Below are positions 12,301 to 63,769 of a DNA stretch of 64,000 bases, piece after piece (within the stretch, counting starts at the first letter, position 1; the number at the start of each line of letters is the position of its first letter). The stretch is from a phage. The stretch is taken from the sequence record PZ540767.1, one strand, 5' to 3'. Made by a program: the position numbers and the translations under genes. The notes beneath the pieces are model-generated. The model searched no databases. It saw nothing but the letters and a program-made list of their open reading frames with translations, and was not told the origin of the DNA.

Positions 12301-15300
12301 AATCAGCAAGATCGAAAGCCAGAACGTGCATGATGCTAACATCCTGTCTCCTGACAATGTGCTGAAAGGTGCTCGTATCCAGAACAAAGCTATGTTTGAT
12401 GCTGTGGTTTCTTATCATCCTCAACATCTGGCTGCTTCTGCACTGCTGACTGAAGTTCGTAGTCTGGCTGGTGCTAACCTGTCTACCAACGACAAGGTTG
12501 CAGCGAAGAAAGCTCTGGAAGCCATGAAGACTAAGATCCTGGGTAAAGACTTCAAGGGCAACATGAAAGCTGCTCTGAACACTATCCTTAACCAGGCATA
12601 TGATCGTGACATTAAGAAACTGGAGACTCTCTCTGAAGTCTATGCTGTTAACCAGTATGGTACTGAGGGGGGTGAATACCTGATCACTGATACTGATCGT
12701 AAGAAAATTGGTGATGAGATTGCACGTCTGAAACGTAGTCGTGCTGCTGGCTTACAACGTATCTCTGCTATGTTCTCTAAGGGTAATGCCCCAAAGGCTG
12801 AGGCCAACCAGTATCCTGATAAGATGAGACAATACCTGTATGAGGCTTCGGCCTCTACAGGCTCTGTGTCAGCTTCTGAGGTGATGGCTCGTACCAAAGG
12901 TAAGTTTGCTAACCCAGTATATAACGAACTCCACAATCTCATTTCTGGTTTGATTCCAGCTGATGCTGTGGTGAACGTACTGGATGGGCAGACTATGCCT
13001 AAGAATGTTAAGGGGCAGTCACTGCCCCAGAACCGTGATGCCATTGCATGGTCTTATCAAGATAAAAACACTGCACAGGTTAACCTGTCACTCAGCAAAG
13101 AGGCTTCACCTGAAGTCTTGCTGCATGAACTGACTCACATTGCTCTGGGACGTGCAATTGCTACTGCTGATTCAAATCCAAAAGTAAAAGCTGTACTGGC
13201 CCGTACAGAGAAGCTAATGGGTAGAGTGACCAAGCTGGTTTCAGCTGATCCTCAATTGACTCAGAAGTTTGCCCCTGCTTTGGCTAACGTGGATGAATTT
13301 ATCTCCTGGGGTATGACTAACCCAGAATTCCAACGTTACCTTGATACCATCACTGGTGTGCCTGAAATCTCAGGTCGTAACCGTGGATGGTTGGGTACTG
13401 CCTTTAAACAGTTTGTGGATCAAATGTCAGGCATCTTTGCTGCTGTAACTGGTCGAGCTATTAATGCTCGGGTTACTACTGCTCTGGAAGCTCTGACCTT
13501 CGATACTGCACATCTGGTTCAGGCTATTAATCCTACTGCTATTGAGAGTCCTGTATCTTCTATCAGCCACCCTATGAGCAACACTAACAGTGCTGCTGAT
13601 CAGGTAGCTAAGTTTAGCCATGTGGATATCTTTGATAACCTGGCTTCAACAGGTGGCAAGACTAACTCAGCACAGTTCACAGGTAACCTCCGTAATGTAA
13701 TATCCACTGTGGCGGATCAGCTTTACGGTGCTTTAGGCTCCAGAGTCACCCAGAATGCCAATGAGAATTATACTCCTGGTCAAGTCTGGAATGAGGCTGT
13801 AGCCACTGGGAAAGCCCCTGTCAGCACCGAAGCACTGAGCAATGGGTTTGTACTGACTAATCAGGAAGCCTTTGCTGTGGAGGCCATTGAGGCTGCTGTA
13901 TCTGAATCTCTGGCTTCTGGTTTCACTTCACCAGTTAACCGGGAGATTCGTCGTACTTGGCAAGCTGCTAAACAATCCCTGAAACCAGAAGACTTCCATA
14001 ATGGAAACTGGAATCAGGCAACTCAAGCAGAAAAACGAGCTGCTCAACAGAAATGGAATTATCTGTTTGATGTAACGAATGACTCTGGTGAGTCCCAGCA
14101 TCTGTCTCGTTTCGTTGCTATGGCTATTGGGCATGAAGACACCAGTAACTTACTTGGCTTCCAGATGGAAGATGGTAAGGACTCTGGTAATACTGCCTTT
14201 GAACAGGCTACTGCTTACTTTAACCAGGCTGTTAATACAGTCTCTGGCATGTTGACCAATACCCATCAAGGACAAGCTGCAAATGCTCGTGCTCAAGCAC
14301 TAGCTGAAAAGCTGATCCAGATTGAACTTAAGAACCGTGATACCACCATGAATATTCTTACTGGTGGGATCGACAAAGTAGAGAATGCCTTAGATACGGC
14401 TGCTGCTAAGTCTAAACAGTTCCTGGGTAAAATCGTTAAAGCTACTGGTATTGATCAGTCCTCCAACAATGCTCTGAATGCTATGGGCAAAGTTGCAGGA
14501 TTGGCTGCTCGTGATCAGCTGGGTAGCCTGAAAGAAACTATTAAAGAGTTCCGGGACTTTAATGCCCCTAGTACTCCAGAAGGTTCTCTGGCTTCCATTC
14601 TGACTGAAGCAACGAATGCTGATGATGTTCGTGCTCTGCATGAATCTCTGTTACGTTCTACTAAACGTATTGAACAGGATCGTGCAACCTTAGCTGCTGT
14701 TACTGCTAAGAACTTAAATGAGATGTTTGATAACAATGGTCAAGACCTGACTAAAGAAGATCGTACAGCAATGACTTACTCACTGCTTCGTACTGATCTT
14801 CAGTCTGTGTTGCACATTGAAGGTATGAACCTGAATAACTTACATAAACTGGTTTCTAATACTGGTTATCGTAAGCAGCAGATCAATAACCTTGAGAAAA
14901 CCATTAGCCAGTATGCTAACGGTAATGATAAGATCATTCGTGCCAAGGCTCTGGGATTCTGGATGGCTACTGGCAGAAATACCCTGGGACGTGATTTAGT
15001 TCTGAATGCAAAAGCTATTGCTACCGGAGCTGCTACTCACTATTCCACAGTAGGTATCGAACCGACTCTTGATGAAGTGAACGCCATTGATGCTCTGGCT
15101 TCAATGTACGCTCTAAGCTACACCAAGACCGAAAACCGTGTTCGCACTGCTGCTGTAATGGAACGTGAGCTTGCACGAGGTAAAGACAATGGCATTAAAA
15201 TGCTGATGGCTACTTATGCGAACCTGATTGAGGATTCTGCTAATACGCTGTTTGCTGGTAACCAGTTGTCTCGCATTAAAGGCTATTTGCCTGAAGATAC

Positions 15301-17050
15301 CAATCCTCATCATGACTTACGTGCGGTTGAGTCGGGGAGTGCAGATGAAGCAGCACTGGTGAACATGGGATACCAAAAAGTATCCCCACTGTCCCAGGAC
15401 TCTTTGTCAAAACACTCTGGACGTGTACTGTATGTGACCAAAGAGAATGGGTATCAACGAACCGTCTCTGGTACTTTCAGTTTAACTGGAAGCCAGCGTA
15501 AAGGTTCTTCCCTAAGTGGGGATCGTGCTGTTGCTGATCGTGTTCGAGCTGACGAGTTAGAACAGTTAAGGCAAGCGTCCTATGCAGACGTGCGAGGGCG
15601 TGAAGCACTGTCCCACACTGCCTTTGATCCTACTCAGATCCAGGATAACCATGTAGTGCCTGTATTAAGCACTGATGGTCATATCATGGACTTCCGTTAC
15701 ATGGCTACCCACAATACTCGTGACACGTTCCTTGATCGTAATAATGACTTTGCTGACCTTGTTGGTCGTCTGGCTGGTCAGAATATCGATAAGGGTGATG
15801 CCCCAAGCCAGAATGCTAAGATCCTGGAAGCTCTGCATGAAGACTCTAAGGCTAATATCCTGAAGAATCCTAATGCTTACTTTGAGATTGGGCCTAATGC
15901 ACCTACTGAGCGAGGACGTGAGATCTGGGCAATGATGCCTTATGAAGCACGTACTAAAGCTACTTCTCTGTGGGGTGCTGATCGTATGTATATTCGAAAC
16001 GATCTGGTTAACCTTACTTTTGGCTTCCGTAAGTATTCACTGGCTAACATTTTTGATGTTGATCCAGAACAGCGTAATATTGCTCAGGGTGTTGCTGCTG
16101 GTTTACTTGAAGCTGCTTTTGGTGATAAGGCTAAAGCTTATGTAATTAAGGGTGAGCGTGGCATTCAGGAATTTATGCAGTCCTATAAGGACGTGATCGT
16201 TATTCGTAACCTGAAAACCCAGTTCAGTAATATTATGTCTAATACTGCTCTACTGGCTGCTTATGGCGTTAACCCGGTACGTATGGTTAAAGATATCCGT
16301 ACTGCTCTGGTTGCTGGGATTGACTACCGTAAACAGTACTCGCTGCTACTCAAGTATCAGCAACAGCAACGTGCTGGTATTGGTAACTTTGCTCAGATGG
16401 AGTCCCTGATCAATGAGACGCAGGATCGCTTGAATGCTAACCCTCTGGCTAAGTTTATTCAGGCAGGTATGATGCCTACCATCGTAGAAGACGTTCAGCC
16501 TGATGCTGATGGTTACACTTATGGTTCTAAGATCCGTAAGAAATTTAATGAGGTATCTGCCCATCTGCCAGCTTCTGCTGTAACAGCTGCTCGCTGGGCT
16601 GTGATTGATAAAGGTACTGCACCTCATAAATTCTTAAGTGATGCTGCTCAGTTCAGTGACTTTGCTGCTAAGTATGCTCTGTATAAGCACCTGACAGAAC
16701 ATGCCCGAGATCGCCTGAGTCATACTGAGGCTTTACAACGTGCATCTGATGCTTTTGTTAACTATGACATTCCAGCTACAGCTACTCGCCAATATCTGGA
16801 TGATATGGGGATTACCATGTTTACGAAGTATCGTGTTCGTATCCAACGTGCAATGTTCTACTTGATGGATAAACGTCCAGCATCTGTTATGGCACATATG
16901 GCAATTACAGGGCAGTTTACTCATGCACCTGATGCTATGGAGCCACTGTTTGCACGTAACTTAGGTAACCCATTCACACCTTCAGTATTGCAGGGTGGGA
17001 GTTTGTTGAATGTCCCAATGCCTTGGAACTTATTCAGAATGGCATACTAA
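6368..17050 (+). CDS. Giant virion-associated RNA polymerase (vRNAP-like, 3560 aa)
   Basis: Single uninterrupted 10.7-kb ORF; size class matches N4 vRNAP (~3500 aa); sits at the end of the structural operon; followed by a strong terminator. Confidence 0.8.
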   Translation: MRLQSGYSTILRNTQMAGNSSPLDKFLVPQQVTGQEAAQALPAPTQPTIAQRVNDASTRILNNLTGQGMYPTEEGEIARLKRINNEQSAYAKEVAAKDSDYGWSSTNFLDPETSSLTDRTASTFVNYGKALTDAVNGLAGKTDKTFKTLGNVLDQASIPNDALDAYRRVQAGKGTEADNALLDRQGAWWTQPIEVNQYGVPEMGNQTLRQRLDAINERQKTQNQSSYDNLEKLANPVQMQQAAADIEKSIEGKSGLDKFAAGLAAIARNPGAAGQTMVESAPYMVGGIPGMLASSAMQGGSVLSQYLDTQRKASDGQIPTAKDVAIGTGLGVVDGALNFAESIINRTAMLPGSKVLPAGVADRLVNAAQRIAPRSSTAAAALARVTAPTLDLAKNALTEGLVSGAQNQIEENYAKGKNEWDTKGNDVAFFQGIAAATGFGAPRAALSTAGEVANTAAQAMQKRTEAQDPVGQAARNTTPEDLMNPQSEGYNPAAAIRRAGMEWTRNTDATTDEQKAEIQSQAQSAMDAAQNDHQNNLDMINQRATAERTLADAGKFIPAIQERLDQLSNDPNADPDAVNQLQTILAQQTEARDAAQQQLDAMPSQEELAQSATRSAEVLDQAKSEFGKFSSATGMNTNTAKPENPTASDIISHPMSYTNEDLQEFVRNAPANATPAELGTLRALADAKVAENAVKTGSKVNSEIFKSTSNNLSLGDYQQGINTAVQAGDTNRIQSLMTGINNFETSHTAKADIAQQYLNEAKQNGKSYQILKTSNGWELNTGKRLDAKAQAKNGGFTIHKGSTGLVNNIVNEAKAITATRQYMEGIATPSTNQNVTGSTEQVASPEAQPEGAATVAGETGAQEQQAQPTISPLTTRDIRAMDQATLEKVMATTQQAMSSDTNPVLARNLDALDREWTRRADVATNQNRGVDAPHRKLDDSFKPKAQENEIQRSQAETTTQTEHTQADIDNESTGSESQQTAPVNVDDVVTNTDTLTETQQDNVAHGALSIFGKVGESLKALREKALAEPKGLQNLVLTGFNQRVRPGFGSPLVAVKDFINTLKTAVDTGSFTEVNRFLKQHISESKAEGAKQKALLKQFVEFHDHITANLDNIIRTKAPEYRYQDFAQFILDENGNFDSNTKTGIAAGIFSWLGENGDKMFLNQSEVAKTLRIKEDQLTPQAMSRMADIGYRQDLIMSQLGQRIYQAMGFAKRADVDPNRASKLQNALGAYALHAMYSNGYMEQSLMTAKEYFDLQTMGLDEQSAKEAAQAFQNDFGVSPNDAKHKIVFSRPARNFDAEGKPVAIEAISDIKNGMKDTRSLMSKLFGYDPAVREVLTTKPAGFKQKVFGKMNREVPSVLAARISKAMQYDYTIDQGVVNAMRTMSTVDNAALQHIFGVRTDADVPNEMEIFKKGREAKNADIQRSMEMGLDFANRRGTNPFWMPMEVWTNQRIGDLASEFNPQGSKVHRAMGGLSAHQVEISVARNAPVLDADGKPTQYGLFLVSLAQGMEEAPVIGADGKKLKSVDKQTYATFLPAFQNYLRKPENIKAVRAMQKVIAGSATTADTNVIKNAVAEYGMNGQSFAALHNLAQYATALESGKSSVKLLAQMESDGVTNGPILTNILNGSADFDLLKRGGIYREGDNITNMPTYRELGGQDYYELLGDAMRQHWADYKTNAPASQQGQIQALEYFSTGYGARSKAKTLATPFNYSAGIPALKAAMGRATVEDVYSKIGSLIPLAKSNNKADFAKAYAEVSKNLSVLLGQKVNLPRTADGLVKFSLNPAQTKRIIDVDSQTRGVATETAVNEVAADFIASRDANTSLVNTTFTLANLRYNAAKAALLKKRIAEGKIPVDAKGAPLEGLTQADLDKLSRMIPNMPSATGVLSENTKASGYPMAKVEKAFTAKSPATSIDIYFKEAANPKPAMDANGMLLSQGLVGGYKSTQSTVTETKLTNPGVAMGANVTQGTDAAISSDVISKIESQNVHDANILSPDNVLKGARIQNKAMFDAVVSYHPQHLAASALLTEVRSLAGANLSTNDKVAAKKALEAMKTKILGKDFKGNMKAALNTILNQAYDRDIKKLETLSEVYAVNQYGTEGGEYLITDTDRKKIGDEIARLKRSRAAGLQRISAMFSKGNAPKAEANQYPDKMRQYLYEASASTGSVSASEVMARTKGKFANPVYNELHNLISGLIPADAVVNVLDGQTMPKNVKGQSLPQNRDAIAWSYQDKNTAQVNLSLSKEASPEVLLHELTHIALGRAIATADSNPKVKAVLARTEKLMGRVTKLVSADPQLTQKFAPALANVDEFISWGMTNPEFQRYLDTITGVPEISGRNRGWLGTAFKQFVDQMSGIFAAVTGRAINARVTTALEALTFDTAHLVQAINPTAIESPVSSISHPMSNTNSAADQVAKFSHVDIFDNLASTGGKTNSAQFTGNLRNVISTVADQLYGALGSRVTQNANENYTPGQVWNEAVATGKAPVSTEALSNGFVLTNQEAFAVEAIEAAVSESLASGFTSPVNREIRRTWQAAKQSLKPEDFHNGNWNQATQAEKRAAQQKWNYLFDVTNDSGESQHLSRFVAMAIGHEDTSNLLGFQMEDGKDSGNTAFEQATAYFNQAVNTVSGMLTNTHQGQAANARAQALAEKLIQIELKNRDTTMNILTGGIDKVENALDTAAAKSKQFLGKIVKATGIDQSSNNALNAMGKVAGLAARDQLGSLKETIKEFRDFNAPSTPEGSLASILTEATNADDVRALHESLLRSTKRIEQDRATLAAVTAKNLNEMFDNNGQDLTKEDRTAMTYSLLRTDLQSVLHIEGMNLNNLHKLVSNTGYRKQQINNLEKTISQYANGNDKIIRAKALGFWMATGRNTLGRDLVLNAKAIATGAATHYSTVGIEPTLDEVNAIDALASMYALSYTKTENRVRTAAVMERELARGKDNGIKMLMATYANLIEDSANTLFAGNQLSRIKGYLPEDTNPHHDLRAVESGSADEAALVNMGYQKVSPLSQDSLSKHSGRVLYVTKENGYQRTVSGTFSLTGSQRKGSSLSGDRAVADRVRADELEQLRQASYADVRGREALSHTAFDPTQIQDNHVVPVLSTDGHIMDFRYMATHNTRDTFLDRNNDFADLVGRLAGQNIDKGDAPSQNAKILEALHEDSKANILKNPNAYFEIGPNAPTERGREIWAMMPYEARTKATSLWGADRMYIRNDLVNLTFGFRKYSLANIFDVDPEQRNIAQGVAAGLLEAAFGDKAKAYVIKGERGIQEFMQSYKDVIVIRNLKTQFSNIMSNTALLAAYGVNPVRMVKDIRTALVAGIDYRKQYSLLLKYQQQQRAGIGNFAQMESLINETQDRLNANPLAKFIQAGMMPTIVEDVQPDADGYTYGSKIRKKFNEVSAHLPASAVTAARWAVIDKGTAPHKFLSDAAQFSDFAAKYALYKHLTEHARDRLSHTEALQRASDAFVNYDIPATATRQYLDDMGITMFTKYRVRIQRAMFYLMDKRPASVMAHMAITGQFTHAPDAMEPLFARNLGNPFTPSVLQGGSLLNVPMPWNLFRMAY

Positions 17051-52232: not shown

Positions 52233-52775
52233 TTAACTACTGGCTTCATCTTTTCCATAATAGCGTTTTTGCAGTTCGTTCATCCCTACCTGAAGCAAAT
52301 ACATCAGATCTTCATCTTCCAGGTGTTGGACGTAGGTTAATGGGTTAATGGAATCGACTACTTCTTTAGCCTTTTCCAGTGATTTTTTAGCAGCCAGAAT
52401 GGCAGCAGTATCCTGAGCTACTTTCAGATACTCCGTAGGAGTCAGCTTAGGCTTTGCTGGTTTAACTTCTGGGTTACCCCAGGCATTTTCACCAGAAGCC
52501 ATAAGAGCATGGATACGTTCTTCCAGCTTGCCATAGTCCATAGGAGGCACTTGAGGGTACTGCCAGGCACGAGAAGCCAGAATTGCAGGGTTATGGGACA
52601 ACTGACGTTTAGTAGGTGACAGATGCAGGGCAGCATCAAATTCACCATTCTGGTTTGCAGCACGGAGAATGCCCCGTACAGTTTCCAGTTTAACCCCAGA
52701 TACTGTAGAGATCTGGTGGATACAGTAGCCTTCACGAGCCATAGCCAGAAGTGCAGCAGATTTGATAGCTGTCAT
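52233..52775 (-). CDS. Hypothetical protein (180 aa), possible N-terminal HTH
   Basis: ORF with ATG; N-terminal 'CIHQISTVSGVKLETVRGILRAA' HTH-like. Confidence 0.45.
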   Translation of the reverse strand: MTAIKSAALLAMAREGYCIHQISTVSGVKLETVRGILRAANQNGEFDAALHLSPTKRQLSHNPAILASRAWQYPQVPPMDYGKLEERIHALMASGENAWGNPEVKPAKPKLTPTEYLKVAQDTAAILAAKKSLEKAKEVVDSINPLTYVQHLEDEDLMYLLQVGMNELQKRYYGKDEASS

Positions 52776-53625: not shown

Positions 53626-53908
53626 TACTGGATTCCTTATTATTTAGGGAATGTAAATAACCCTATCGTGTATGACATTGCACTTTGAAGCCCTACAACA
53701 TAGGGTACTTCCCAGTGTAAGAAGGTGAACACCAGGTAACTAATGAAGATTGAAGCACCATTAATTAGTACAGAGATCATCACTAGTTTCCTTATTCAGG
53801 TTGTATTGATTGATGAACTCACGACGAAGTTCTTGCAGACGAGCTACCTCAGCCTCTGCTTTGTCGATAGCTTCGTCGAAGTCTTTCATCGTTTCATTGA
53901 TTTTGTCT

Positions 53909-54157
53909 TTATCCATTGTACATACAGCTCCAGACAAGGGCACAGATGAACGCTGAGATTCCCCAGAACCCGTGCCACATTTGTTGACGGTGAAGTTTTG
54001 CCTCATAACCACAGAGACGTAAGTGAGCTTTGACTGTCTGGGTAGCTTCGTACTCATACTCAGCTTTCTCCAGTTCAGCTTTTGAGATCCTTACCAGGTG
54101 TGTCCACCAGATAAAGTTGATGCAGCAAATGGCTAAAGCAATTAATACGTAGATCAT
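53909..54157 (-). CDS. Small membrane protein (82 aa)
   Basis: ATG; N- and C-terminal hydrophobic helices with central coiled coil. Confidence 0.4.
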   Translation of the reverse strand: MIYVLIALAICCINFIWWTHLVRISKAELEKAEYEYEATQTVKAHLRLCGYEAKLHRQQMWHGFWGISAFICALVWSCMYNG

Positions 54158-54412
54158 AGGAGCCTCTTTAGGATATAGGTTAAGACTGTCTTAAACCCCG
54201 TTAGCCTATAGGTTACTTTAGTCAAAATGGGGATTTTTGGTAAATTTAGAATATAGGTTGAAAGCGTACTAGTAGTACTAAGAAGTACTACCAGAACACT
54301 CTGAACTACTAAAAATGAGGGGAGACTAGCTCCCCTGCCAAAGGCATAGATAAGAATTAAGTGATGGTAATGAGTCGAGCGACTCACAGAAGTGACCGGA
54401 GGTCACAAAGGC

Positions 54413-54697
54413 TTAAGCCCACTTCAGCATATACTTGTGGAAGTTGTCAGCAGTAATGCCACACAAGATGATATGTGCTGTACCTACTCCTCCTTTCTGC
54501 TTACCGAGAAACTCAATACCTTTTGAGACATCAGTTATGGCTTGAACACCACTGGCATCGACTGTGCCTTTGGTTGGGTAATACATGAGTTTACCAGCCC
54601 AAAATACTGATTTAACTGCTACATGCCCTTGAGTAGGCACTTCTGCTGTAAAACCAGGGAATTTATTGATGAAATCTGCTGCTTCAGATGCGTTCAT
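54413..54697 (-). CDS. Hypothetical protein (94 aa)
   Basis: ATG after agagga RBS. Confidence 0.45.
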   Translation of the reverse strand: MNASEAADFINKFPGFTAEVPTQGHVAVKSVFWAGKLMYYPTKGTVDASGVQAITDVSKGIEFLGKQKGGVGTAHIILCGITADNFHKYMLKWA

Positions 54698-54748
54698 AAG
54701 ATCCTCTTTACCGTTGATGGAAACACTCGCAAAGATGCCCGGAGGGCA

Positions 54749-55156
54749 TCAACGCTTAGTATTATCGCTATATATTTTATTGAAGAAGTTAAAAGCATCA
54801 GCGATATCAGATGTACTTTTAGGTTCCTGAATAGACCGATCATAGATAAATTGTTTAGGGTTGTTTATTTCCTGTCTTCTGAGCACTTCCTCTAGCATCT
54901 TACGTTGAAAATCTTTCATAGAGTTGTACACAGGTTGCTCCTCATTGCCTGGTTTCCAGTAGATCCAGCCTAATGGGGCAGACTCTAAGTCCATTTCAAT
55001 TCCTGGGATGGAATTTTTATGAATGACTTCAAATTGCCCTTCTACTGCTGCTATGACAGTAACTGGTTTCAGCTCCAGTTCTTGTATGCCTATGGCATTA
55101 GCTGTTTTGATTCTCTTAACAGTGCCCCTTGGCACCATGTATTTTATTGTGTCCAT
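54749..55156 (-). CDS. Paralogue 3 of 'KxIKTxxAIG' family (135 aa)
   Basis: N-terminal 'GTVKRIKTANAIGIQELELKP'; first ATG 55156. Confidence 0.5.
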   Translation of the reverse strand: MDTIKYMVPRGTVKRIKTANAIGIQELELKPVTVIAAVEGQFEVIHKNSIPGIEMDLESAPLGWIYWKPGNEEQPVYNSMKDFQRKMLEEVLRRQEINNPKQFIYDRSIQEPKSTSDIADAFNFFNKIYSDNTKR

Positions 55157-55610: not shown

Positions 55611-55642
55611 CCTCAAAAAATAAACCTACCCCGAAGGGTAGG
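55611..55642 (-). terminator. C(UUCG)G tetraloop intrinsic terminator after RNAP II genes
   Basis: On - strand: 7-bp stem cctaccc/gggtagg with UUCG loop followed by UUUAUUUUUU. Confidence 0.6.
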
Positions 55643-55649
55643 TGTTTGG

Positions 55650-56924
55650 TTAGCTTAATGCATAGTTGGAACCACGGATTTTATCTCCGAGGTTGTTAGA
55701 CAGTTTGGTATATACCCCATCAGTGCTTCCATACAGCTGGTTCATCAGGGATTGCAGAATGGTGCTATCAGCGAATTCTGCCAGCATCTCTTTGTACCAG
55801 TACCGTACTTCATTACAGTTGTTTGGATGGGAACCAAAGGCATCGTGAACAGTAGCCACAGGGAATGGTTTGTAGGTCAGCATGAAGTTAACTTTACGCA
55901 TTACATCACGAGCTAAGTCGATAGGTAACTGCATGTAGTTGCTCCAGTTGATATCGTTGAGAATAACCATAGAAGACTGCTTATTCTCATTCCACAGACG
56001 GATACGACGTACCATATCACCAGTAGCTTCTTCAGCCTGCATACCCATGCTATTAGCCAGCAGACGTGCTTCCAGCATCTTCTGCACCTCTGCTACCAGT
56101 TCTGGATCGTAGTTGCACAGACGCTCCAGCTCACGCAGCAGATAGGCATCACAGCAGTGAATGGTATTGGCTACGTTAGCTCGGCCTTTCTCTGTACCCC
56201 GGTTCTCTTTGTATTCCATGGTGAAAGTAGCGTGATCAAGCTCATCTACTTCAATTCTGGTTTCCAGAGTTTCCATGACTTTCATCTTAGCGATGAAGCC
56301 ATCAGGCAGCTCCAGAACGTGTTCCAGAGCATACGGACGCCAGGAACCCAGGAGTTCATCCATGAGGTTGAACGCACCAGGAGCGATGATGTGGGCTGCT
56401 TCGTAGAAGTAGTCCAGCATCTCGCCCTCACCGAATACCTTCTTAGGCACAGCCTTAGAACCGTAACCAGAGGTCATTACAGCTTGTTTGATATGGCTAC
56501 GAGGTACTTGGATACTATCCAGACCTTTACGCTTCAGAACGCCATTCATGGCGTCTGTAGTGTTGCTGTAGGCATCCATACGCTTCTCTGGGTCAATACA
56601 ACCAGTGTTGTATGCACCTCTCTCACAGCCTGTGAGGGCACTCATAATCTGAATTCCAGAGCAGCAACCATCCCAGTAGGTGATGTTGCCTACAGCTTCC
56701 CCACGCTGTACACGACGTAAAGTCATAACAGCTTTGTGGTACAGCTCAGGGGTTTCAGCATCTTGAACCTTAGATTCCAGATCCTTGATGTTGTCGTATA
56801 CCCACTGAATACGTTCTTCGAACAGTTTCTTGTCCAGACCGTAATAGTTGGCTACGTCGATGCACATGTATTCCCAACCAGACATATATTTGAAGTTTGG
56901 GCCATAAGCGGTGTTGATTACCAT
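55650..56924 (-). CDS. Phage RNA polymerase II, large (catalytic) subunit; T7-like single-subunit RNAP C-terminal half
   Basis: 'DGCCSGIQIMSALTG' (T7 RNAP motif A-like DGSCSGIQ) and 'VHDAFGSHP' (motif C-like HDSFG). Confidence 0.85.
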   Translation of the reverse strand: MVINTAYGPNFKYMSGWEYMCIDVANYYGLDKKLFEERIQWVYDNIKDLESKVQDAETPELYHKAVMTLRRVQRGEAVGNITYWDGCCSGIQIMSALTGCERGAYNTGCIDPEKRMDAYSNTTDAMNGVLKRKGLDSIQVPRSHIKQAVMTSGYGSKAVPKKVFGEGEMLDYFYEAAHIIAPGAFNLMDELLGSWRPYALEHVLELPDGFIAKMKVMETLETRIEVDELDHATFTMEYKENRGTEKGRANVANTIHCCDAYLLRELERLCNYDPELVAEVQKMLEARLLANSMGMQAEEATGDMVRRIRLWNENKQSSMVILNDINWSNYMQLPIDLARDVMRKVNFMLTYKPFPVATVHDAFGSHPNNCNEVRYWYKEMLAEFADSTILQSLMNQLYGSTDGVYTKLSNNLGDKIRGSNYALS

Positions 56925-56941
56925 TAGTTAAGTCTCTCTAT

Positions 56942-57949
56942 TTAAAGTTTAAATTCATCAGGCACACCAGTTACTTGCTCTTTATTGGCAAAGTTTAAAC
57001 TGGCTTTCTTGAAGGGAGTGCCTTGAAGGTTGATGTGATAACCCTGGGTATACAGACGTCCACGTTTGTCAGGTTTATTGCCAAAGTAGAACTTATTACC
57101 CTGGTTTACCATCAGGCTATAGAAGTAGTACGACTGACGTTTGTAACGCATCCAGTTGTCTTTCTGTTTACGTACCAGATCAGCCTTCTCCCACGGTGTG
57201 AGAGGTTTCTTACGGTGTTTCTGGAGCTTCTCTTCATCGATCTCATTGAGATCAAATGTAGGTTCTTCTTCGTAGTTACAGAGGAATTCTACGTCCAGAG
57301 AGTAAGGCACAGCATTACGGCTGTTGATTACATCCAGACAGATATCCTCATTATGGTGATTGAATGATCCCCCTAGAATAAGGCTATCAGATGAATAAGT
57401 AAGGTAAGGAGTATCCATGTTATGGGTAAGCTTCTTGGGTGGGCAAACCAGTGGTGGTAGATAACACGAACGCTCAATGAATTGAGCCAACTGGTCAGGC
57501 AACCCAATATTGCTAACGATATACAGAGATGCTTTAGGATGAGGCTTGTTAATGTCATATACATCAGTATCCGTAAGGACAGCAACGATTTCAGCCATAG
57601 TCTGAATGCTGTCACGTTTATCATCGAAACCCAGTCTGGAAGCCAGCTGGCCTACTACGTTGACCATTGGAGTAGGTTCAGGGAAATACATAATTCCCAC
57701 GAACACTTCTTTCACAATAGCTTCCAGATCAAGGGATTTGAGGTGGTTAAGGCGTACAGCTTTAGAGTCGTAATACTCACCCTCAAGCCACTGGTTTAAC
57801 AGAGATACACCCTGTTCTACCTTGTCTAACAGGTTGCAATCAGGGTCTTCAAACAGCTCTTTACGGATATAACCATCAATATGTTTCCTGTTGAACTGAC
57901 GTTCATTGATGGCCTGAAGTTCCTCAACTGGTAACCATTTATGCTGCAT
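56942..57949 (-). CDS. Phage RNA polymerase II, small subunit (N-terminal half of split T7-like RNAP)
   Basis: Immediately upstream of catalytic subunit in same orientation; 335 aa; N4 gp15/gp16-like split arrangement. Confidence 0.65.
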   Translation of the reverse strand: MQHKWLPVEELQAINERQFNRKHIDGYIRKELFEDPDCNLLDKVEQGVSLLNQWLEGEYYDSKAVRLNHLKSLDLEAIVKEVFVGIMYFPEPTPMVNVVGQLASRLGFDDKRDSIQTMAEIVAVLTDTDVYDINKPHPKASLYIVSNIGLPDQLAQFIERSCYLPPLVCPPKKLTHNMDTPYLTYSSDSLILGGSFNHHNEDICLDVINSRNAVPYSLDVEFLCNYEEEPTFDLNEIDEEKLQKHRKKPLTPWEKADLVRKQKDNWMRYKRQSYYFYSLMVNQGNKFYFGNKPDKRGRLYTQGYHINLQGTPFKKASLNFANKEQVTGVPDEFKL

Positions 57950-58640: not shown

Positions 58641-58931
58641 TTACAGTTCGAAGTTTTCGAGTGCCTTGGCATCACCGAAGGTGACTGACAGACGCTCTCC
58701 CAGAGCCTCTACGCCGTGCTCACGAATGAAGGCCAGTACTGCACCTTCAACCGGGTGATCTTCACGCAGAGCGATGCCACGGCCACCCTGACCCAGGCGA
58801 CGAACCTGACCGTCACGGCCTTTGACGCCGATGTTCAGATAGCCACCAATGTTACGCTCAACAGGAGCAGCAGCATTGTTAGCAGAGGAATTGGAAGTGT
58901 TGTTTGCAGCAGTGTTTTTCTGATAAGCCAT
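58641..58931 (-). CDS. Early protein (96 aa), first gene after a hairpin promoter; possible RNAP II cofactor by position only
   Basis: ATG 58931 (MAYQKN...) after gaggt RBS; Asn/Ala-rich N-terminus, Gly/Arg-rich core. Confidence 0.45.
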   Translation of the reverse strand: MAYQKNTAANNTSNSSANNAAAPVERNIGGYLNIGVKGRDGQVRRLGQGGRGIALREDHPVEGAVLAFIREHGVEALGERLSVTFGDAKALENFEL

Positions 58932-58992: not shown

Positions 58993-59011
58993 CATTGCCC
59001 TGTGGGCAATG
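58993..59011 (-). promoter_or_regulatory. Hairpin promoter candidate (N4 vRNAP-type), instance 1
   Basis: + strand gcaTTCATTgccc-TGT-gggcaatg: 8-bp stem, 3-nt loop; ~60 nt upstream of ATG 58931. Confidence 0.5.
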
Positions 59012-60344: not shown

Positions 60345-60566
60345 TCATTTATTGTCCTGTGGACAATATACCTCCCAATCTGTCCATTTTTGAGCTAGGA
60401 AGCCTTCTACAGTATCTGTGATAGTATGGCCATCAAGAAATCTTACAAGTATTATACTATCCTGGGACAATGTTATATAAGAACCACTATCCCATACTGA
60501 TCTTTTTATCTTAGCCCCTAGTTTCAGCATTAATAATGCTTCTTTAGCAGTCATATAATGTACCAT
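60345..60566 (-). CDS. DUF2829/Tad2-like small protein, copy 1
   Basis: N-terminus 'MTAKEALLMLKLGAKIKRSVW'. Confidence 0.5.
   Translation of the reverse strand: MVHYMTAKEALLMLKLGAKIKRSVWDSGSYITLSQDSIILVRFLDGHTITDTVEGFLAQKWTDWEVYCPQDNK
60350..60368 (-). promoter_or_regulatory. Hairpin promoter candidate, instance 2
   Basis: + strand ataTTCATTtattgtcc-TGT-ggacaata; overlaps 3' end of the preceding small ORF; ~75 nt upstream of ATG 60278. Confidence 0.5.
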
Positions 60567-60742: not shown

Positions 60743-60938
60743 ATAATTTCCACTCCATATCTGCATATTCTTCAGTAAACTTATTAACAGCACAGGCTAG
60801 ACTGACAAAGTTTAATGGTTTATGTACATAGCAAATACAGTTGCCTTGTAAATCATAATAGTTAGTATAATCAGTCCAGGTAGCAGGAATAACCTTGCAA
60901 CCTATTTTCATTGCAAGCAATGCTTCAGCTGTTGTCAT
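60699..60938 (-). CDS. DUF2829/Tad2-like small protein, copy 3
   Basis: 'MTTAEALLAMKIGCKVIPATW'. Confidence 0.5.
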   Translation of the reverse strand: MTTAEALLAMKIGCKVIPATWTDYTNYYDLQGNCICYVHKPLNFVSLACAVNKFTEEYADMEWKLYDDSGSPVSNEDRM

Positions 60939-61128
60939 TGAATAACTCCCAATTATCTACGTCACCATAACAAGGTATATAGTCTTCAAGTACCAAATGG
61001 GGAGTACCATCTTCATTAACTGTTATATCATCTATAGGATCATATTGTACCCAATCACCTGGTGCCCATGTTTCCCTTCGTACTTTGCATCCTAGTTTAA
61101 GAGCTAGTACTGCTTCTTTGGTTTTCAT
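60925..61128 (-). CDS. DUF2829/Tad2-like small protein, copy 4
   Basis: Start at internal ATG 61128: 'MKTKEAVLALKLGCKVRRETW'. Confidence 0.5.
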   Translation of the reverse strand: MKTKEAVLALKLGCKVRRETWAPGDWVQYDPIDDITVNEDGTPHLVLEDYIPCYGDVDNWELFNDNS

Positions 61129-61174
61129 CCCCTGTCTCCAGTAGACCGATTCACAAGAGTGTTCGGAGAACACG

Positions 61175-62477: not shown

Positions 62478-62529
62478 AGTTAATACTCCAATAGGTTATA
62501 TACCCTGGCTTACACCAGGGCTTGAGTGA

Positions 62530-62745: not shown

Positions 62746-62782
62746 AGGTATATCTCCAATAGATTAAGTGGACACTTCTATT

Positions 62783-62800
62783 CATTGCCTGTAGGCAATG
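62783..62800 (-). promoter_or_regulatory. Hairpin promoter candidate, instance 3
   Basis: + strand cttctaTTCATTgcc-TGTA-ggcaatg; 7-bp stem. Confidence 0.5.
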
Positions 62801-62930
62801 CATGGTCGTAGTACTGTCGCTGTCGCTTCGTACTACTCCCTGTGTAATACCAGTGTTCATTAGAATGGCTTACAGAGACTGTGACTATTAGTTATTATTT
62901 TAAAGGCAACCCGTTAGGGTTGCCTCTATT

Positions 62931-63152
62931 TCAAAACGGAATCTCATCACTGAATCCTGACAGATTCACTGGATAAAACTCATGCCAGTAATAAGACTGA
63001 TCATGAGCCTCAATGGACTCTGCACGGATTTCCTTATACATACCACTGTTACGAACTTCTTGCAGGGCAGCTTCCGCTTCCTCAAGAGTTCCAAAGGTAT
63101 CTACAAAGGTATCTGCATAGAGATCCCCAGGTACAACAGTAAGTAAGAACAT
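62931..63152 (-). CDS. Acidic early protein with SSB-tail-like C-terminus (73 aa)
   Basis: ATG after ggaga RBS; ends '...NLSGFSDEIPF'; first gene after hairpin promoter instance 4. Confidence 0.5.
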   Translation of the reverse strand: MFLLTVVPGDLYADTFVDTFGTLEEAEAALQEVRNSGMYKEIRAESIEAHDQSYYWHEFYPVNLSGFSDEIPF

Positions 63153-63203: not shown

Positions 63204-63220
63204 ATTCTCCTGTGGAGAAT
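63204..63220 (-). promoter_or_regulatory. Hairpin promoter candidate, instance 4
   Basis: + strand cttctaTTCATTctcc-TGT-ggagaat; 7-bp stem, 3-nt loop; ~52 nt upstream of ATG 63152. Confidence 0.5.
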
Positions 63221-63769
63221 ACCACTGATGCTTAAGTGCAAGAGAACTACGTAGTAGTTCTCCTTGCATACTTCCACTGAAGGTATAGGTACACTTTGTG
63301 TGTAAGATATAGGTTGGTTTAGGTATGAGGTAGGTGGATGATAGGATATAGGGTGAGTATAGAAACATTACCAAAGTAGTAATTTGACACTCAATTCCCA
63401 TCATTTCCTATATAAGTTAACTGGTCACGGTACTGAGTGATTAGGTTATCGGAGTACACCGTTAGGGTGTACGGAGATAACTGGTGATTCTACATAGAAT
63501 AGATCTATAGCTATGTGATGACTGAGGGTGGGTTAGTGAGGGATTGTGTTAAGGGATTGAGTGAGATAGTAACACTGTGTCAAGTGGTTTGTCTTATATC
63601 ATTTTGTTATAAGCATATTCAGAATTGATATATAGATTAATCTGGACTGGTTTATCAGTAACTTACTGTATACAGGAAGTAGTACAGAGTTAGACTGACA
63701 TACGCCAGAGAGTAAGTTTGCCACAAGTTTTGAAACGGAGTAGCGCACCTGTACTGTCATGTAGCACAG

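What the first reader, a model, noticed from the sequence alone, without database searches (positions are those of the whole stretch)
54158..54412. Hairpin- and repeat-dense 255-bp non-coding region carrying an ATATAGGTT motif shared with the terminal non-coding region
Between two minus-strand genes lies a 255-bp gap with three copies of (G/A)ATATAGGTT (54172-54181, 54207-54214, 54250-54259) and four short perfect hairpins (54266-54278, 54319-54335, 54372-54385, and 54392-54406 with a GGA loop). The identical 10-mer GATATAGGTT recurs at 63306-63315 among further TAGGT-like repeats. Candidate functions: middle-promoter cluster, replication origin, or structured RNA.
Basis: seen in the sequence. 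Interest (0 to 1): 0.5.

Follow-up and report, generated by a model that had tools for sequence, protein, structure and literature searches.

The report
Conserved phage transcription-control region
This 255-bp gap in a Klebsiella N4-like phage is a conserved non-coding control region holding a DNA-hairpin promoter for a phage RNA polymerase, a short structured leader, a terminator, a palindrome and three copies of a promoter-like box; only the boxes have an unknown function.

Summary
The window is a Klebsiella N4-like phage (Schitoviridae, Efbeekayvirus), and 54158-54412 is non-coding.

The four "hairpins" are four different things, read on the minus (gene-sense) strand:
- 54392-54406 is a hairpin promoter. 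Its template loop is 5'-C GGA G-3', as in N4 P2/P3 and the mapped LUZ7 promoters PE7/PE8/PM1-4. It is one of only three such hairpins in 64 kb (0 of 1000 shuffles reach three).
- 54371-54386 is a hairpin at the 5' end of the predicted transcript.
- 54309-54336 is an intrinsic terminator.

Three ACCTATAnnCTAA boxes follow, then the ribosome-binding site of an 82-aa gene. This box occurs strongly at only six places in the window: three here and three in the left-end non-coding region.

The gap is the most conserved stretch locally: 8.6% variable columns against 56% in the upstream gene. The same layout recurs in Pectobacterium phage CB1 and Enterobacter phage SonariX.

Best reading: an early-to-middle transcription boundary. 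The boxes are probably promoters for the phage's T7-like RNA polymerase II, but this is the least certain part. Origin and small-RNA readings remain open. The 77-aa ORF is not conserved.

The parts
54413..54697 (-). Upstream 94-aa gene (context only). Its TAA stop is at 54413-54415. This position is a variable cargo slot between two hairpin promoters.
   Evidence: ORF list. Across 15 genomes 56% of its columns vary. It exists as two divergent alleles, is replaced by a different gene in L018, and is deleted in L011 and L022. No PHROG or Pfam match.
54392..54406 (-). Hairpin promoter 'site A'. The 6-bp stem GTGACC/GGTCAC carries the loop TCC on the RNA-sense strand and 5'-GGA-3' on the template (+) strand, closed by a C:G pair.
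   Evidence: one of only three such hairpins in the window; 0 of 1000 shuffles reach three. The loop and closing pair match N4 P2/P3 (PMC4496689) and the mapped LUZ7 promoters PE7, PE8 and PM1, PM2, PM4 (PM3 has the TCC loop but a T:A closing pair). The hairpin is identical in the 17 relatives examined. Folds as DNA at -5.0 kcal/mol, z = -3.9.
54385..54387 (-). Predicted transcription start. G residues lie 12 and 14 nt downstream of the loop centre, in the context TTCT-GTGAG.
   Evidence: All three window sites share G-Y-G-A-R at +12 to +16 from the loop centre. N4 starts at a G 11 nt from the centre. LUZ7 TCC-loop promoters start at a G 14-15 nt from the centre. This start is inferred, not mapped.
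54371..54386 (-). Hairpin at the 5' end of the predicted transcript (TGAGTCG-CT-CGACTCA).
   Evidence: RNA fold. Halo_KS_7 keeps the hairpin through a G-U pair. K17alpha62 keeps it with a 1-nt loop insertion. CB1 and SonariX have a different hairpin, GACGC-TTTC/TTGC-GCGTC, at the same place.
54337..54370 (-). Unstructured, U-rich stretch of the leader. It contains ACTTAATT at 54355-54362.
   Evidence: Unpaired in the minimum-free-energy and centroid folds. ACTTA(A/G)TT is kept in CB1 and SonariX. Nearly invariant within the genus.
54309..54336 (-). Intrinsic terminator: AGGGGAG-CTAGT-CTCCCCT followed by CATTTTTAG.
   Evidence: Terminator scan. RNA fold. CB1 and SonariX have stronger terminators with unrelated sequences at the same position.
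54269..54294 (.). A 26-bp AT-rich palindrome (CTGGTAGTACT-TCTT-AGTACTACTAG).
   Evidence: DNA fold -9.0 kcal/mol, z = -5.5. Conserved in the genus, but with the loop inverted in FBKp27. SonariX has another palindrome, AACTTCTATAGAAGTT, at this position.
54244..54261 (-). Box 1: TCAACCTATATTCTAAAT.
   Evidence: The CB1 counterpart is AAACCTATATGTTAAA and the SonariX counterpart is ATACCTATATGCTAGA.
54199..54216 (-). Box 2: GTAACCTATAGGCTAACG.
   Evidence: The 14-mer AACCTATAGGCTAA is identical in CB1, and the spacing from box 1 to box 2 is 45 nt in both genera.
54166..54183 (-). Box 3: TTAACCTATATCCTAAAG. It runs into the Shine-Dalgarno sequence AAGAGG (54163-54168) of the 82-aa gene, whose ATG is at 54155-54157.
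   Evidence: The CB1 counterpart is CTACCTATAACTTAAA.
53909..54157 (-). Downstream 82-aa gene, the first gene after the control region. From its sequence it looks like a small membrane protein; this was not tested.
   Evidence: ORF list. Annotated as a CDS in all annotated relatives. No family match.
54734..54750 (-). Hairpin promoter 'site B' (GATGCCC-TCC-GGGCATC). It overlaps the stop codon of the 139-aa gene and lies upstream of the 94-aa gene.
   Evidence: It sits in tandem with site A, 54 nt away, in K17alpha62 (L011) and in L022.
61159..61173 (-). Hairpin promoter 'site C' (GTGTTC-TCC-GAACAC). It follows a terminator and precedes a Tad2-like gene at 60925-61128.
   Evidence: Conserved in FBKp27. 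Positional counterparts are CB1 2942 and SonariX 4102.
63276..63356 (-). Second cluster of three boxes in the left-end non-coding region (TCACCCTATATCCTATCA, CCAACCTATATCTTACAC, TGTACCTATACCTTCAGT). It lies upstream of the first gene, whose ATG starts at 63152.
   Evidence: The CCTATA cores are kept in FBKp27 while the flanks diverge. Equivalent clusters occur in CB1 (707-750) and SonariX (2353-2398).

Best explanation
The gap is a compound, strictly non-coding transcription-control region. It sits where the early gene block, which includes the T7-like RNA polymerase II genes, meets the long block of middle (replication) genes.

Read in gene sense:
1. Directly after the stop codon of the upstream gene, a DNA hairpin acts as a promoter for one of the phage's own RNA polymerases. 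The hairpin extrudes on the template strand with the very stable C-GGA-G triloop. Transcription starts at a G 12-14 nt downstream.
2. The transcript begins with a hairpin and a short U-rich stretch.
3. It then meets an intrinsic terminator about 50-75 nt from the start. This terminator also ends transcripts arriving from upstream. As a result, only an attenuated fraction of transcription continues.
4. Downstream lie an AT-rich palindrome and three direct copies of ACCTATAnnCTAA. Their core resembles the -7 to +2 core of T7-group promoters. These are most likely start sites for RNA polymerase II, launching the middle operon at the 82-aa gene.

Shown here: the anatomy, its statistical significance, its conservation within the genus, and its recurrence in two other genera.

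Inferred: promoter activity of the hairpin (by analogy with N4 and LUZ7), which of the two phage polymerases uses it, the efficiency of the terminator, and above all the function of the boxes.
For: Identity of the window:
- It is an Efbeekayvirus, 93% identical to pKP-BM327-1.2 and FBKp27.
- The RNA polymerase II genes lie at 55650-57949 on the minus strand.

Hairpin promoter:
- Only three hairpins in the window have a C-GGA-G loop and a stem of at least 6 bp. All are on the template strand of the early genes, and all lie at gene boundaries.
- They share the flank TYTT-GYGAR.
- 0 of 1000 shuffles give three such hairpins.
- N4 P1-P3, read from the genome, have the same layout (PMC4496689).
- The predicted promoters of KP8 have it too (PMC6950046).
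- In LUZ7, TSS mapping found TCC-loop hairpin promoters PE7, PE8 and PM1-4. PE7 lies immediately after the stop codon of the RNA polymerase II large subunit and immediately before a strong terminator.
- Across lineages the stems differ while the TCC loop is kept; the C:G closing pair is kept in all but LUZ7 PM3.
- A Drc-like cofactor gene is present.

Terminator.

Conservation:
- 8.6% of columns vary in the gap, against 56%, 34% and 13.7% in neighbouring genes.
- The genes between the elements are swapped or deleted while the elements themselves stay.

Cross-genus recurrence: CB1 and SonariX have the same order of elements.

Boxes:
- They are strand-specific and confined to two intergenic clusters.
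- Box 2 matches the T7 core CACTATAGG (-7 to +2, quoted from memory) at 7 of 9 positions.
- N4 carries a strand-specific, intergenic-enriched AACTATCT motif.
- The minimal N4 RNA polymerase II promoter spans -7 to +2 (PMC4496689).
Against: - No transcript data exist for this genus, so promoter activity is an analogy.
- The N4-specific contact base, -8G, is absent.
- The N4 vRNAP residues that read the promoter cannot be aligned at 28% identity.
- A promoter placed upstream of a terminator looks wasteful.
- The boxes occur in only two clusters and not in front of the other middle genes.
- In 11 of the 15 other Efbeekayvirus genomes aligned over this stretch, and in Halo_KS_7 and K17alpha62, each of the three boxes carries one substitution: AACCTGTAT, AAACTATAG, AACCTATGT.
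- In SonariX the middle box has decayed.
- In LUZ7, the closest phage with a mapped transcriptome, the middle promoters are hairpins rather than linear boxes.
- I could not obtain the published N4 middle-promoter consensus.
Confidence: 0.6

Rival explanations
1. Replication origin. The tandem phage-polymerase promoters (sites B and A) make a short, terminated RNA that primes DNA synthesis or opens the duplex. The AT-rich palindrome and the direct repeats act as the unwinding element and the iterons. This would resemble the primary origin of T7, which has two tandem T7 promoters plus an AT-rich stretch just downstream of the RNA polymerase gene.
For: - The layout fits: promoter, then a short terminated transcript, an AT-rich palindrome and three direct repeats.
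- Sites B and A lie in direct tandem in K17alpha62 and L022.
- The region sits about 12% from the left end, just after the T7-like polymerase genes.
- A second repeat cluster lies at the genome end.
- Hairpin-loop inversions in relatives suggest the inverted repeats extrude or cause template switching during replication.
Against: - The repeat spacing (45 and 33 nt here; 45 and 21 nt in CB1) is not in helical phase.
- No initiator gene is identified.
- GC skew is dominated by gene orientation and shows no switch here.
- The boxes all point in the direction of transcription, and the last one abuts a ribosome-binding site.
- Nothing in the papers I could read locates an origin for N4-like phages.
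Confidence: 0.12
2. A conserved small RNA of about 75 nt. The functional product would be the transcript from hairpin A to the terminator: a 5' stem-loop, a conserved single-stranded ACUUAAUU segment and a terminator with a U tail. It would act on host or phage targets.
For: - The fold is better than shuffles: -22.3 kcal/mol, z = -2.9.
- The sequence is nearly invariant within the genus while the flanking genes vary.
- CB1 and SonariX keep the same three-part architecture and the ACTTA(A/G)TT motif.
- Halo_KS_7 keeps the 5' hairpin through a G-U pair.
- Small RNAs were reported for LUZ7 (PMC9163698).
Against: - No Rfam family matches.
- Pairing of the single-stranded segment with phage translation-start regions is no better than for shuffled leaders: 81% of shuffles do as well.
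- Host targets were not tested.
- In 12 of the 17 relatives examined the terminator has a weaker T tract and is followed by a small ORF, which fits a leader or attenuator better.
Confidence: 0.12
3. The boxes are binding sites for a phage-encoded or host DNA-binding protein (a regulator of the early-to-middle switch, or a factor acting at the genome end) rather than promoters.
For: - The direct repeats are 14-18 nt long and confined to two clusters, one of them next to the terminal repeat.
- They are not found before other middle genes.
- A protein with a weak HTH_23 match is encoded nearby at 52233-52775 (the score is below Pfam's cut-off).
Against: - The motif is asymmetric and every copy is co-oriented with transcription.
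- No candidate binding protein is identified.
- The core resembles T7-group promoters.
Confidence: 0.12
4. Host sigma-70 promoter, as annotated in the FBKp27 and Halo_KS_7 records over box 1 (TACGCTTTCAACCTGTATTATAAATT).
For: 'Promoter' features are annotated in two relatives. Box 1 contains TATATT.
Against: - The consensus scan finds no sigma-70-like site on the minus strand of the gap.
- No acceptable -35 element lies at 16-18 nt.
- The FBKp27 promoter features look like software predictions of mixed quality.
- In N4-like phages, early and middle transcription does not depend on the host polymerase (PMC4496689).
Confidence: 0.03
5. The gap encodes a protein: the 77-aa ORF at 54154-54387, which is annotated as a CDS in GADU21.
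For: The ORF is present in the window and annotated in GADU21.
Against: - It starts at a GTG that coincides with the predicted transcription start, and no Shine-Dalgarno sequence precedes it.
- It stops after 38 codons in FBKp27.
- A 293-bp insertion breaks it in 12 of the 17 relatives examined.
- No PHROG match.
- CB1 and SonariX have no equivalent ORF.
Confidence: 0.01

Closest known systems
Early promoters of coliphage N4 (P1, P2, P3), used by the virion RNA polymerase
   Same: - A 5-7 bp stem with a 3-nt loop.
- Template-strand loop 5'-GGA-3' closed by C:G, identical to P2 and P3.
- A short pyrimidine-rich spacer followed by a G start.
- Three sites per genome, all on the template strand of the early genes in the left part of the genome (PMC4496689).
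   Different: - The template base at -8 is C or T, not the G that N4 vRNAP contacts.
- The G lies 12 or 14 nt from the loop centre, not 11.
- The first site is about 2-2.7 kb from the presumed left end, whereas N4 P1 is at 96 bp.
- The vRNAPs are only 28% identical.
- A second class of hairpin with ACA loops occupies the positions nearest the left end.
Hairpin promoters of Pseudomonas phage LUZ7, mapped by ONT-cappable-seq (PE7, PE8, PM1-PM4)
   Same: - A stem of at least 6 bp with a TCC loop.
- A G is available 14 nt downstream of the loop centre.
- PE7 sits directly after the stop codon of the RNA polymerase II large subunit and directly before a strong terminator, as site A does.
- The phage has a Drc-like cofactor and a separate hairpin class (TAC/TTC loops in LUZ7, ACA here) nearer the left end.
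   Different: - The LUZ7 leader before the terminator is only about 13 nt and has no 5' hairpin.
- LUZ7 has no ACCTATA boxes.
- LUZ7 has further TCC-loop promoters deep in the middle region; this window has none.
- Which LUZ7 polymerase uses which class was inferred from timing, not shown biochemically.
T7-group promoters, and the minimal promoter (-7 to +2) of N4 RNA polymerase II
   Same: - The boxes are co-oriented with the genes and lie downstream of a terminator.
- Box 2, ACCTATAGG, matches the T7 core CACTATAGG (-7 to +2) at 7 of 9 positions.
- The phage polymerase II is a T7-family enzyme.
- N4's minimal middle promoter is also 9 nt long and AT-rich.
   Different: - There is no conserved -17 to -8 segment as in T7.
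- There are only six sites, in two clusters.
- The conserved downstream part (CTAA) is unlike the GGGAGA of T7.
- N4's recurrent motif is AACTATCT, not ACCTATA.
- The T7 sequence and the reading of AACTATCT as the N4 middle promoter rest on my memory and inference, not on a paper I could read.
Primary replication origin of T7 (tandem promoters 1.1A and 1.1B plus an AT-rich region, downstream of gene 1)
   Same: - Tandem phage-polymerase promoters followed by AT-rich DNA.
- Located just after the T7-like polymerase genes, at about 12-15% of the genome.
   Different: - Here a terminator intervenes.
- Direct repeats and a palindrome are present.
- The replication machinery is unrelated.
- There is no functional evidence. 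The comparison is from memory.
Promoter-early stem-loop (PeSL) cassettes of T4-type phages
   Same: Conserved regulatory elements (promoter plus stem-loop) flank small genes that are swapped, inserted or deleted between close relatives, as seen here on both sides of site A.
   Different: - The promoter type and polymerase are different.
- A role in recombination is only suggested by the pattern. The comparison is from memory.

Membership tests
N4-type hairpin promoter (virion RNA polymerase) | A 5-7 bp stem and a 3-nt loop on the template strand | tested here: met
   The 6-bp stem GTGACC/GGTCAC with a 3-nt loop at 54392-54406. It folds as single-stranded DNA at -5.0 kcal/mol.
N4-type hairpin promoter (virion RNA polymerase) | Template loop 5'-G-purine-A-3' closed by a C:G pair (the -9C, -10G, -11G, -12A positions of N4) | tested here: met
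   The template (+) strand reads C-GGA-G at all three sites. This is identical to N4 P2 and P3 as read from NC_008720. The requirement is described in PMC4496689.
N4-type hairpin promoter (virion RNA polymerase) | G at template position -8, contacted by N4 vRNAP residue R904 | tested here: not met
   Template position -8 is C at site A, C at site B and T at site C.
N4-type hairpin promoter (virion RNA polymerase) | Purine start 11 nt downstream of the loop centre, after a 4-nt spacer | tested here: inconclusive
   All three sites have a pyrimidine spacer (TTCT, TTT, TCTT) followed by G at +12 and +14 from the loop centre. N4 has its G at +11. No start site has been mapped.
N4-type hairpin promoter (virion RNA polymerase) | Conservation of the vRNAP residues that read the promoter (K114, R119, W129, D901, R904) | tested here: inconclusive
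   A pairwise alignment of the 3560-aa vRNAP with N4 gp50 gives 28% identity. These segments fall in gaps.
LUZ7-type TCC-loop hairpin promoter (PE7/PE8/PM1-4) | A stem of at least 6 bp, a TCC loop on the RNA-sense strand, and a G start 14-15 nt from the loop centre | tested here: met
   The stems are 6, 7 and 6 bp, all loops are TCC, and a G is present at +14 in all three sites. Compared with LUZ7 Supplementary Table S2. The start site itself is not mapped.
LUZ7-type TCC-loop hairpin promoter (PE7/PE8/PM1-4) | Genomic context: directly after a stop codon, downstream of the RNA polymerase II genes, upstream of a terminator, in a phage that encodes a Drc cofactor | tested here: met
   Site A begins 6 nt after the TAA stop and is followed by the terminator. 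The LUZ7 PE7 context is the same. The Drc-like gene at 58641-58931 is 39% identical to CB1 gp20 (E = 7e-17) and 31% identical to LUZ7 Drc (E = 3e-4).
Phage hairpin promoters in general | Primary 5' ends demonstrated experimentally | not testable with these tools
   I found no transcriptome for Efbeekayvirus or Cbunavirus.
Intrinsic (Rho-independent) terminator | A GC-rich stem-loop followed by a T tract on the transcribed strand | tested here: met
   A 7-bp stem with 5 G-C pairs, a 5-nt loop and the tail CATTTTTAG at 54309-54336. It is present in the RNA fold.
T7-group promoter | A conserved 23-bp sequence spanning -17 to +6 | tested here: not met
   Only the stretch of about 9 nt from -7 to +2 resembles T7. 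Upstream of ACCTATA the six copies share nothing.
N4 RNA polymerase II (middle) promoter | A minimal AT-rich element from -7 to +2, with a T start preferred | tested here: inconclusive
   The boxes have the right length and an AT-rich core, followed by T or G. The published consensus could not be obtained. N4's own recurrent motif, AACTATCT, differs from the boxes.
Iteron-type replication origin | At least three direct repeats in helical register next to an AT-rich unwinding element, plus a cognate initiator | tested here: inconclusive
   Three repeats and AT-rich DNA are present, but the spacings of 45 and 33 nt are not multiples of about 10.5. No initiator is identified.
Known RNA families (Rfam 15) | A score above the family's gathering threshold | tested here: not met
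   No match at gathering thresholds in the whole window. The best sub-threshold hits in 53900-54800 are chance level, E >= 0.42.
Protein-coding gene (ORF 54154-54387) | A reading frame conserved in relatives, or a match to a protein family | tested here: not met
   Truncated to 38 codons in FBKp27. Broken by a 293-bp insertion in 12 of the 17 relatives examined. No PHROG match.

The most novel reading that the evidence does not exclude
The ACCTATAnnCTAA boxes are the long-sought sequence-specific promoters of the T7-like RNA polymerase II in the Efbeekayvirus/Cbunavirus lineage. The whole module would then be a conserved early-to-middle switch: a hairpin promoter, a terminated leader of about 75 nt, a palindrome and the tandem boxes. 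In the strongest version, the leader RNA or the tandem promoters also serve as the replication origin, as in T7. That would give a concrete, testable promoter for an enzyme whose promoter recognition is still unresolved outside N4 and LUZ7.
Probability: 0.3. Interest if true: 0.6.

Novelty: new member of a known kind. Interest (0 to 1): 0.42.

Why it matters
N4-like phages (Schitoviridae) use three RNA polymerases in turn. Outside N4 and LUZ7, their promoters are only guessed at.

This region offers three things:
- A well-supported hairpin promoter in a Klebsiella phage genus that is used in therapy-oriented work.
- Evidence that two hairpin classes coexist in several genera: TCC loops, and ACA, ATA or TAG loops.
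- A short conserved box that is a concrete candidate for the unknown RNA polymerase II promoter or for a regulator site.

The conserved elements also flank slots where small genes are swapped in and out. That is useful for annotation, because automatic pipelines call spurious ORFs here. It is also useful for engineering these phages.

None of this overturns current views. The value lies in annotation and in making the middle-promoter question testable.

Tried and rejected
- Rfam search of the region at a permissive threshold and of the whole window at gathering thresholds: nothing.
- Sigma-70 promoter scan: no site on the gene strand of the gap. The 'promoter' annotated in FBKp27 and Halo_KS_7 has no acceptable -35 element.
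- Aligning the vRNAP with N4 gp50 to check the promoter-contact residues: too divergent at 28% identity.
- Testing whether the single-stranded part of the leader pairs with phage translation-start regions (RNAduplex against 76 starts): no better than shuffled leaders.
- Obtaining the published N4 middle-promoter consensus (Carter 2003, Willis 2002): the papers are not held.
- Literature search for an N4 origin of replication: nothing usable.
- blastn in distant mode with the gap: only the same genus. The cross-genus homology had to be found through the neighbouring polymerase gene.
- Exact search for the 14-mer AACCTATAGGCTAA in viral contigs: 33 loci, but only two (one Efbeekayvirus, one Cbunavirus) have the full architecture. 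The rest are chance matches.
- The search for related loci with the polymerase: only close relatives.
- PHROG and Pfam searches of the flanking small proteins: no functions.
- GC skew as an origin indicator: it follows gene orientation and is uninformative.
- The template-strand mini-hairpin GTACT-AGT-AGTAC at 54266-54278 considered as another vRNAP promoter: rejected, because its loop and closing pair fit neither hairpin class.
Full report
**What the window is.** The 1.6 kb around the finding is 91-94% identical to thirteen Klebsiella phage records of the genus Efbeekayvirus (Schitoviridae, the N4-like phages). Genes around the finding lie on the minus strand. They include the two subunits of the T7-like 'RNA polymerase II' at 55650-56924 and 56942-57949. 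The 3560-aa virion RNA polymerase is at 6368-17050 on the plus strand. [quoted passage not shown]

**Checking the observation.**
- The 9-mer with one mismatch is not enriched over the whole window (17 found, 17.2 expected).
- Its distribution, however, is extreme. ACCTATA occurs seven times on the minus sense and never on the plus sense, and five of the seven lie in two intergenic regions.
- The repeat finder shows the unit is about 20 nt long. Three copies lie 45 and 33 nt apart.
- A weight matrix built from the six intergenic copies finds nothing comparable elsewhere. The six score 15-22 bits and the next hit scores 12.8.

**Anatomy in gene sense.**
- TAA stop of a 94-aa gene at 54413-54415.
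- Hairpin GTGACC-TCC-GGTCAC at 54406-54392.
- TTCT, then GTGAG.
- Hairpin TGAGTCG-CT-CGACTCA at 54386-54371.
- About 34 nt predicted to be unpaired, containing ACTTAATT.
- AGGGGAG-CTAGT-CTCCCCT followed by CATTTTTAG at 54336-54309. The scan calls this a terminator.
- A 26-bp palindrome, CTGGTAGTACT-TCTT-AGTACTACTAG, at 54294-54269.
- Three boxes: TCAACCTATATTCTAAAT, GTAACCTATAGGCTAACG and TTAACCTATATCCTAAAG.
- Shine-Dalgarno AAGAGG and the ATG at 54157 of an 82-aa gene.

**The GGA-loop hairpin.** On the plus strand, which is the template for these genes, the loop reads 5'-C GGA G-3'.
- A scan of the whole window for perfect hairpins with 3-nt loops finds three with this loop and a stem of at least 6 bp. 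Their centres are at 54399, 54742 and 61166.
- All three are on the same strand and all lie at gene boundaries.
- Their flanks are alike too. In RNA sense they read GTGACC-TCC-GGTCAC-TTCT-GTGAG, GATGCCC-TCC-GGGCATC-TTT-GCGAG and GTGTTC-TCC-GAACAC-TCTT-GTGAA.
- Dinucleotide-preserving shuffles give a mean of 0.047 such hairpins, and none of 1000 gives three.
- FBKp27 has the same three sites and no others in 40 kb.

**Comparison with N4.** The hairpin layout is that of the N4 virion-polymerase promoters.
- Read from the N4 genome, P1, P2 and P3 are GTTGC-TTC-GCAAC-TTAT-G, GAAGC-TCC-GCTTC-TTTT-G and GCTGC-TCC-GCAGC-TTTT-G.
- The review PMC4496689 states that the C:G closing pair and the G and A of the loop are what allow the hairpin to extrude and be recognised.
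- The promoters predicted for Klebsiella phage KP8 have the same form.
- One N4-specific feature, G at template position -8, is absent here.
- The two virion polymerases are only 28% identical, so the contact residues could not be compared.

**Comparison with LUZ7, where transcription starts were mapped (PMC9163698; Supplementary Table S2 of the preprint).**
- LUZ7 has hairpin promoters with TAC or TTC loops near the left end: PE1, PE3, PE4 and PE5.
- It also has promoters with TCC loops and stems of at least 6 bp: PE7, PE8 and the middle promoters PM1-PM4. These start at a G 14-15 nt from the loop centre.
- PE7 lies directly after the stop codon of the RNA polymerase II large subunit and directly before a strong terminator. 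Site A has the same odd arrangement.
- The window also has a second hairpin class: ATTnnCC-ACA-GGnnAAT at 63212, about 62780, 60359 and 59002.
- The 59002 hairpin sits in front of a gene at 58641-58931. Its product is 39% identical to CB1 gp20 and 31% identical to LUZ7 Drc, the polymerase II cofactor.
- This phage therefore resembles LUZ7 in having two hairpin classes and a Drc-like protein.
- Which polymerase reads the TCC class here cannot be decided. N4 argues for the virion enzyme. The position downstream of the polymerase II genes and the LUZ7 PM promoters argue for polymerase II.

**Conservation within the genus.** I aligned fifteen genomes (the window plus fourteen other Efbeekayvirus genomes).
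- Variable columns: 8.6% in the gap, 56% in the 94-aa gene, 34% in the 139-aa gene and 13.7% in the 82-aa gene.
- The stretch from the stop codon to the terminator is essentially invariant.
- The genes between the elements are not stable. The 94-aa gene exists as two divergent alleles. It is replaced by another gene in L018. It is deleted in K17alpha62 and L022, which leaves sites B and A in tandem 54 nt apart.
- A 293-bp module is present just after the terminator in 12 of the 17 relatives examined and absent from the window. It carries a small ORF (MKQFMWFILSLL...) and its own terminator.
- That insertion destroys the 77-aa ORF 54154-54387, which stops after 38 codons in FBKp27. The ORF is not a gene, although GADU21 annotates it.

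**Conservation beyond the genus.** blastn found nothing outside the genus. I therefore followed the polymerase II gene to the nearest other lineages.

In Pectobacterium phage CB1 (61% protein identity), the gap between gp26 and gp27 lies three small genes after polymerase II. It reads:
- stop codon
- CTGGCC-TCC-GGCCAG
- AATGCGGATT
- hairpin GACGC-TTTC-GCGTC
- TGCATAACTTAGTTTTGC...
- a strong terminator
- AT-rich DNA
- AAACCTATATGTTAAA, GAACCTATAGGCTAAA and CTACCTATAACTTAAA
- start codon

The 14-mer AACCTATAGGCTAA and the 45-nt spacing between box 1 and box 2 are identical to the window.

Enterobacter phage SonariX (64%) has the same order of elements. It has a palindrome (AACTTCTATAGAAGTT) before box 1 and a decayed middle box.

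Both phages also carry a CCTATA cluster in the left non-coding region, upstream of the first hairpin.

An Acinetobacter phage also has TCC-loop hairpins just downstream of polymerase II and hairpins with other loops upstream.

**What the boxes may be.** They are asymmetric and all point in the direction of transcription. They lie after a terminator and before the first gene of a roughly 20-kb run of co-oriented genes.
- Box 2, ACCTATAGG, matches the -7 to +2 core of the T7 promoter, CACTATAGG, at seven of nine positions. The T7 sequence is from memory.
- The N4 polymerase II promoter is said to span just -7 to +2 and to be AT-rich.
- N4 itself has a strand-specific motif, AACTATCT, concentrated in intergenic regions of its early region. 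I suspect this is its middle promoter, but I could not confirm it.

Against a promoter role:
- There are only two clusters.
- In most Efbeekayvirus genomes each of the three boxes carries one substitution: AACCTGTAT, AAACTATAG, AACCTATGT.
- LUZ7 middle promoters are hairpins.

I rate the promoter reading of the boxes at about one in three. Binding sites for a regulator and origin iterons are the alternatives.

**Other readings.**
- The predicted transcript from hairpin A to the terminator folds better than shuffles (z = -2.9) and has the look of a small RNA. But it matches no Rfam family, and its single-stranded part shows no special complementarity to phage translation starts.
- An origin like the T7 primary origin fits the layout, but no data bear on it.
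- A sigma-70 promoter, as annotated in FBKp27, is not supported.

**Verdict.**
- The hairpin promoter and the terminator are new members of well-known kinds.
- The composite layout and the boxes have not been described in anything I could read: the CB1 paper, the KP8 paper or the FBKp27 annotation.
- The boxes are the one part that could be a new variant.

Interest is moderate. The finding is useful for annotating and engineering these phages. It gives a concrete handle on the unresolved middle-promoter question, but it does not overturn anything.

Noticed in passing
window 63205-63219, ~62772-62789, 60350-60368, 58993-59011 (minus sense): A second class of 3-nt-loop hairpins, ATTnnCC-ACA-GGnnAAT followed by (G/A)AAT(A/G), sits at gene boundaries in the leftmost 5 kb. 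In FBKp27 the first one has compensatory stem changes (ATTACCC-ACA-GGGTAAT). CB1 and SonariX have ATA-loop counterparts, which the CB1 authors annotate as N4-like early promoters. These probably correspond to the TAC/TTC-loop early promoters of LUZ7.
   Followed up: partly
window 54413-54697; relatives L018, L011, L022, L002: The gene between hairpin promoters B and A is a swap slot. It exists as two very divergent alleles, is replaced by an unrelated longer gene in L018, and is deleted in K17alpha62 and L022. In Halo_KS_7 a different deletion removes it together with site B and fuses a truncated 139-aa gene directly to site A. The flanking regulatory elements stay identical throughout. The pattern recalls the promoter/stem-loop cassettes that flank mobile genes in T4-type phages.
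   Followed up: partly
L001:2088-2382 (FBKp27); absent at window ~54308: A 293-bp module lies between the terminator and the palindrome in 12 of the 17 relatives examined. It carries a small hydrophobic ORF (MKQFMWFILSLLFLYRLVS...) with a strong ribosome-binding site and its own terminator. It is absent from the window, GADU21, cp20, L018, L022 and Halo_KS_7.
   Followed up: partly
L001:2003-2012 (FBKp27) against window 54280-54283; L028 against L015:11046-11052: Two hairpin loops are exactly inverted between close relatives. The palindrome loop is TCTT in most genomes and AAGA in FBKp27. The terminator loop is TAAGATG in CB1 and CATCTTA in a near-identical IMG/VR contig. This is the signature of template switching or cruciform-mediated inversion at inverted repeats.
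   Followed up: no
window 58641-58931 (minus): A 96-aa protein is 39% identical to CB1 gp20 (E = 7e-17) and weakly similar to LUZ7 Drc, the ssDNA-binding cofactor of RNA polymerase II (31%, E = 3e-4). The mechanical ORF call starts 60 nt too early. The likely start is the ATG at 58931, behind a Shine-Dalgarno-like CGAGG.
   Followed up: partly
window 60925-61128 (minus): The gene driven by hairpin site C matches Pfam Tad2-like (Thoeris anti-defence 2, PF11195, 27.8 bits against a cut-off of 25). By eye, similar N-termini (…EALLAMKIGCKV…) recur in neighbouring small ORFs, suggesting paralogues. This was not tested.
   Followed up: partly
L012 (phage N4) 538, 1111, 2571, 6893, 11717: AACTATCT occurs five times on the sense strand and never on the other strand in the first 12 kb of N4. 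Three of the five lie in intergenic regions, before gp2, gp3 and gp8. It is a candidate for the N4 middle-promoter core, which I could not check against the literature.
   Followed up: partly
window 55624-55643: A strong hairpin, ACCTACCC-TTCG-GGGTAGGT, lies directly after the RNA polymerase II large-subunit gene, with a T tract on the minus strand. It is probably the main early terminator. The three genes that follow it (55616-54749) have no recognisable promoter of their own.
   Followed up: no
window 62478-62529, 62746-62930; L012:134 (N4 gp1); L015:897: The translation-start context AAC(C)TATTGGAG-N9-11-ATG is shared by several early genes of this phage, by CB1 gp02 and by N4 gp1. The ACCTAT core therefore also turns up as part of ribosome-binding regions, which complicates reading every copy as a promoter.
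   Followed up: no
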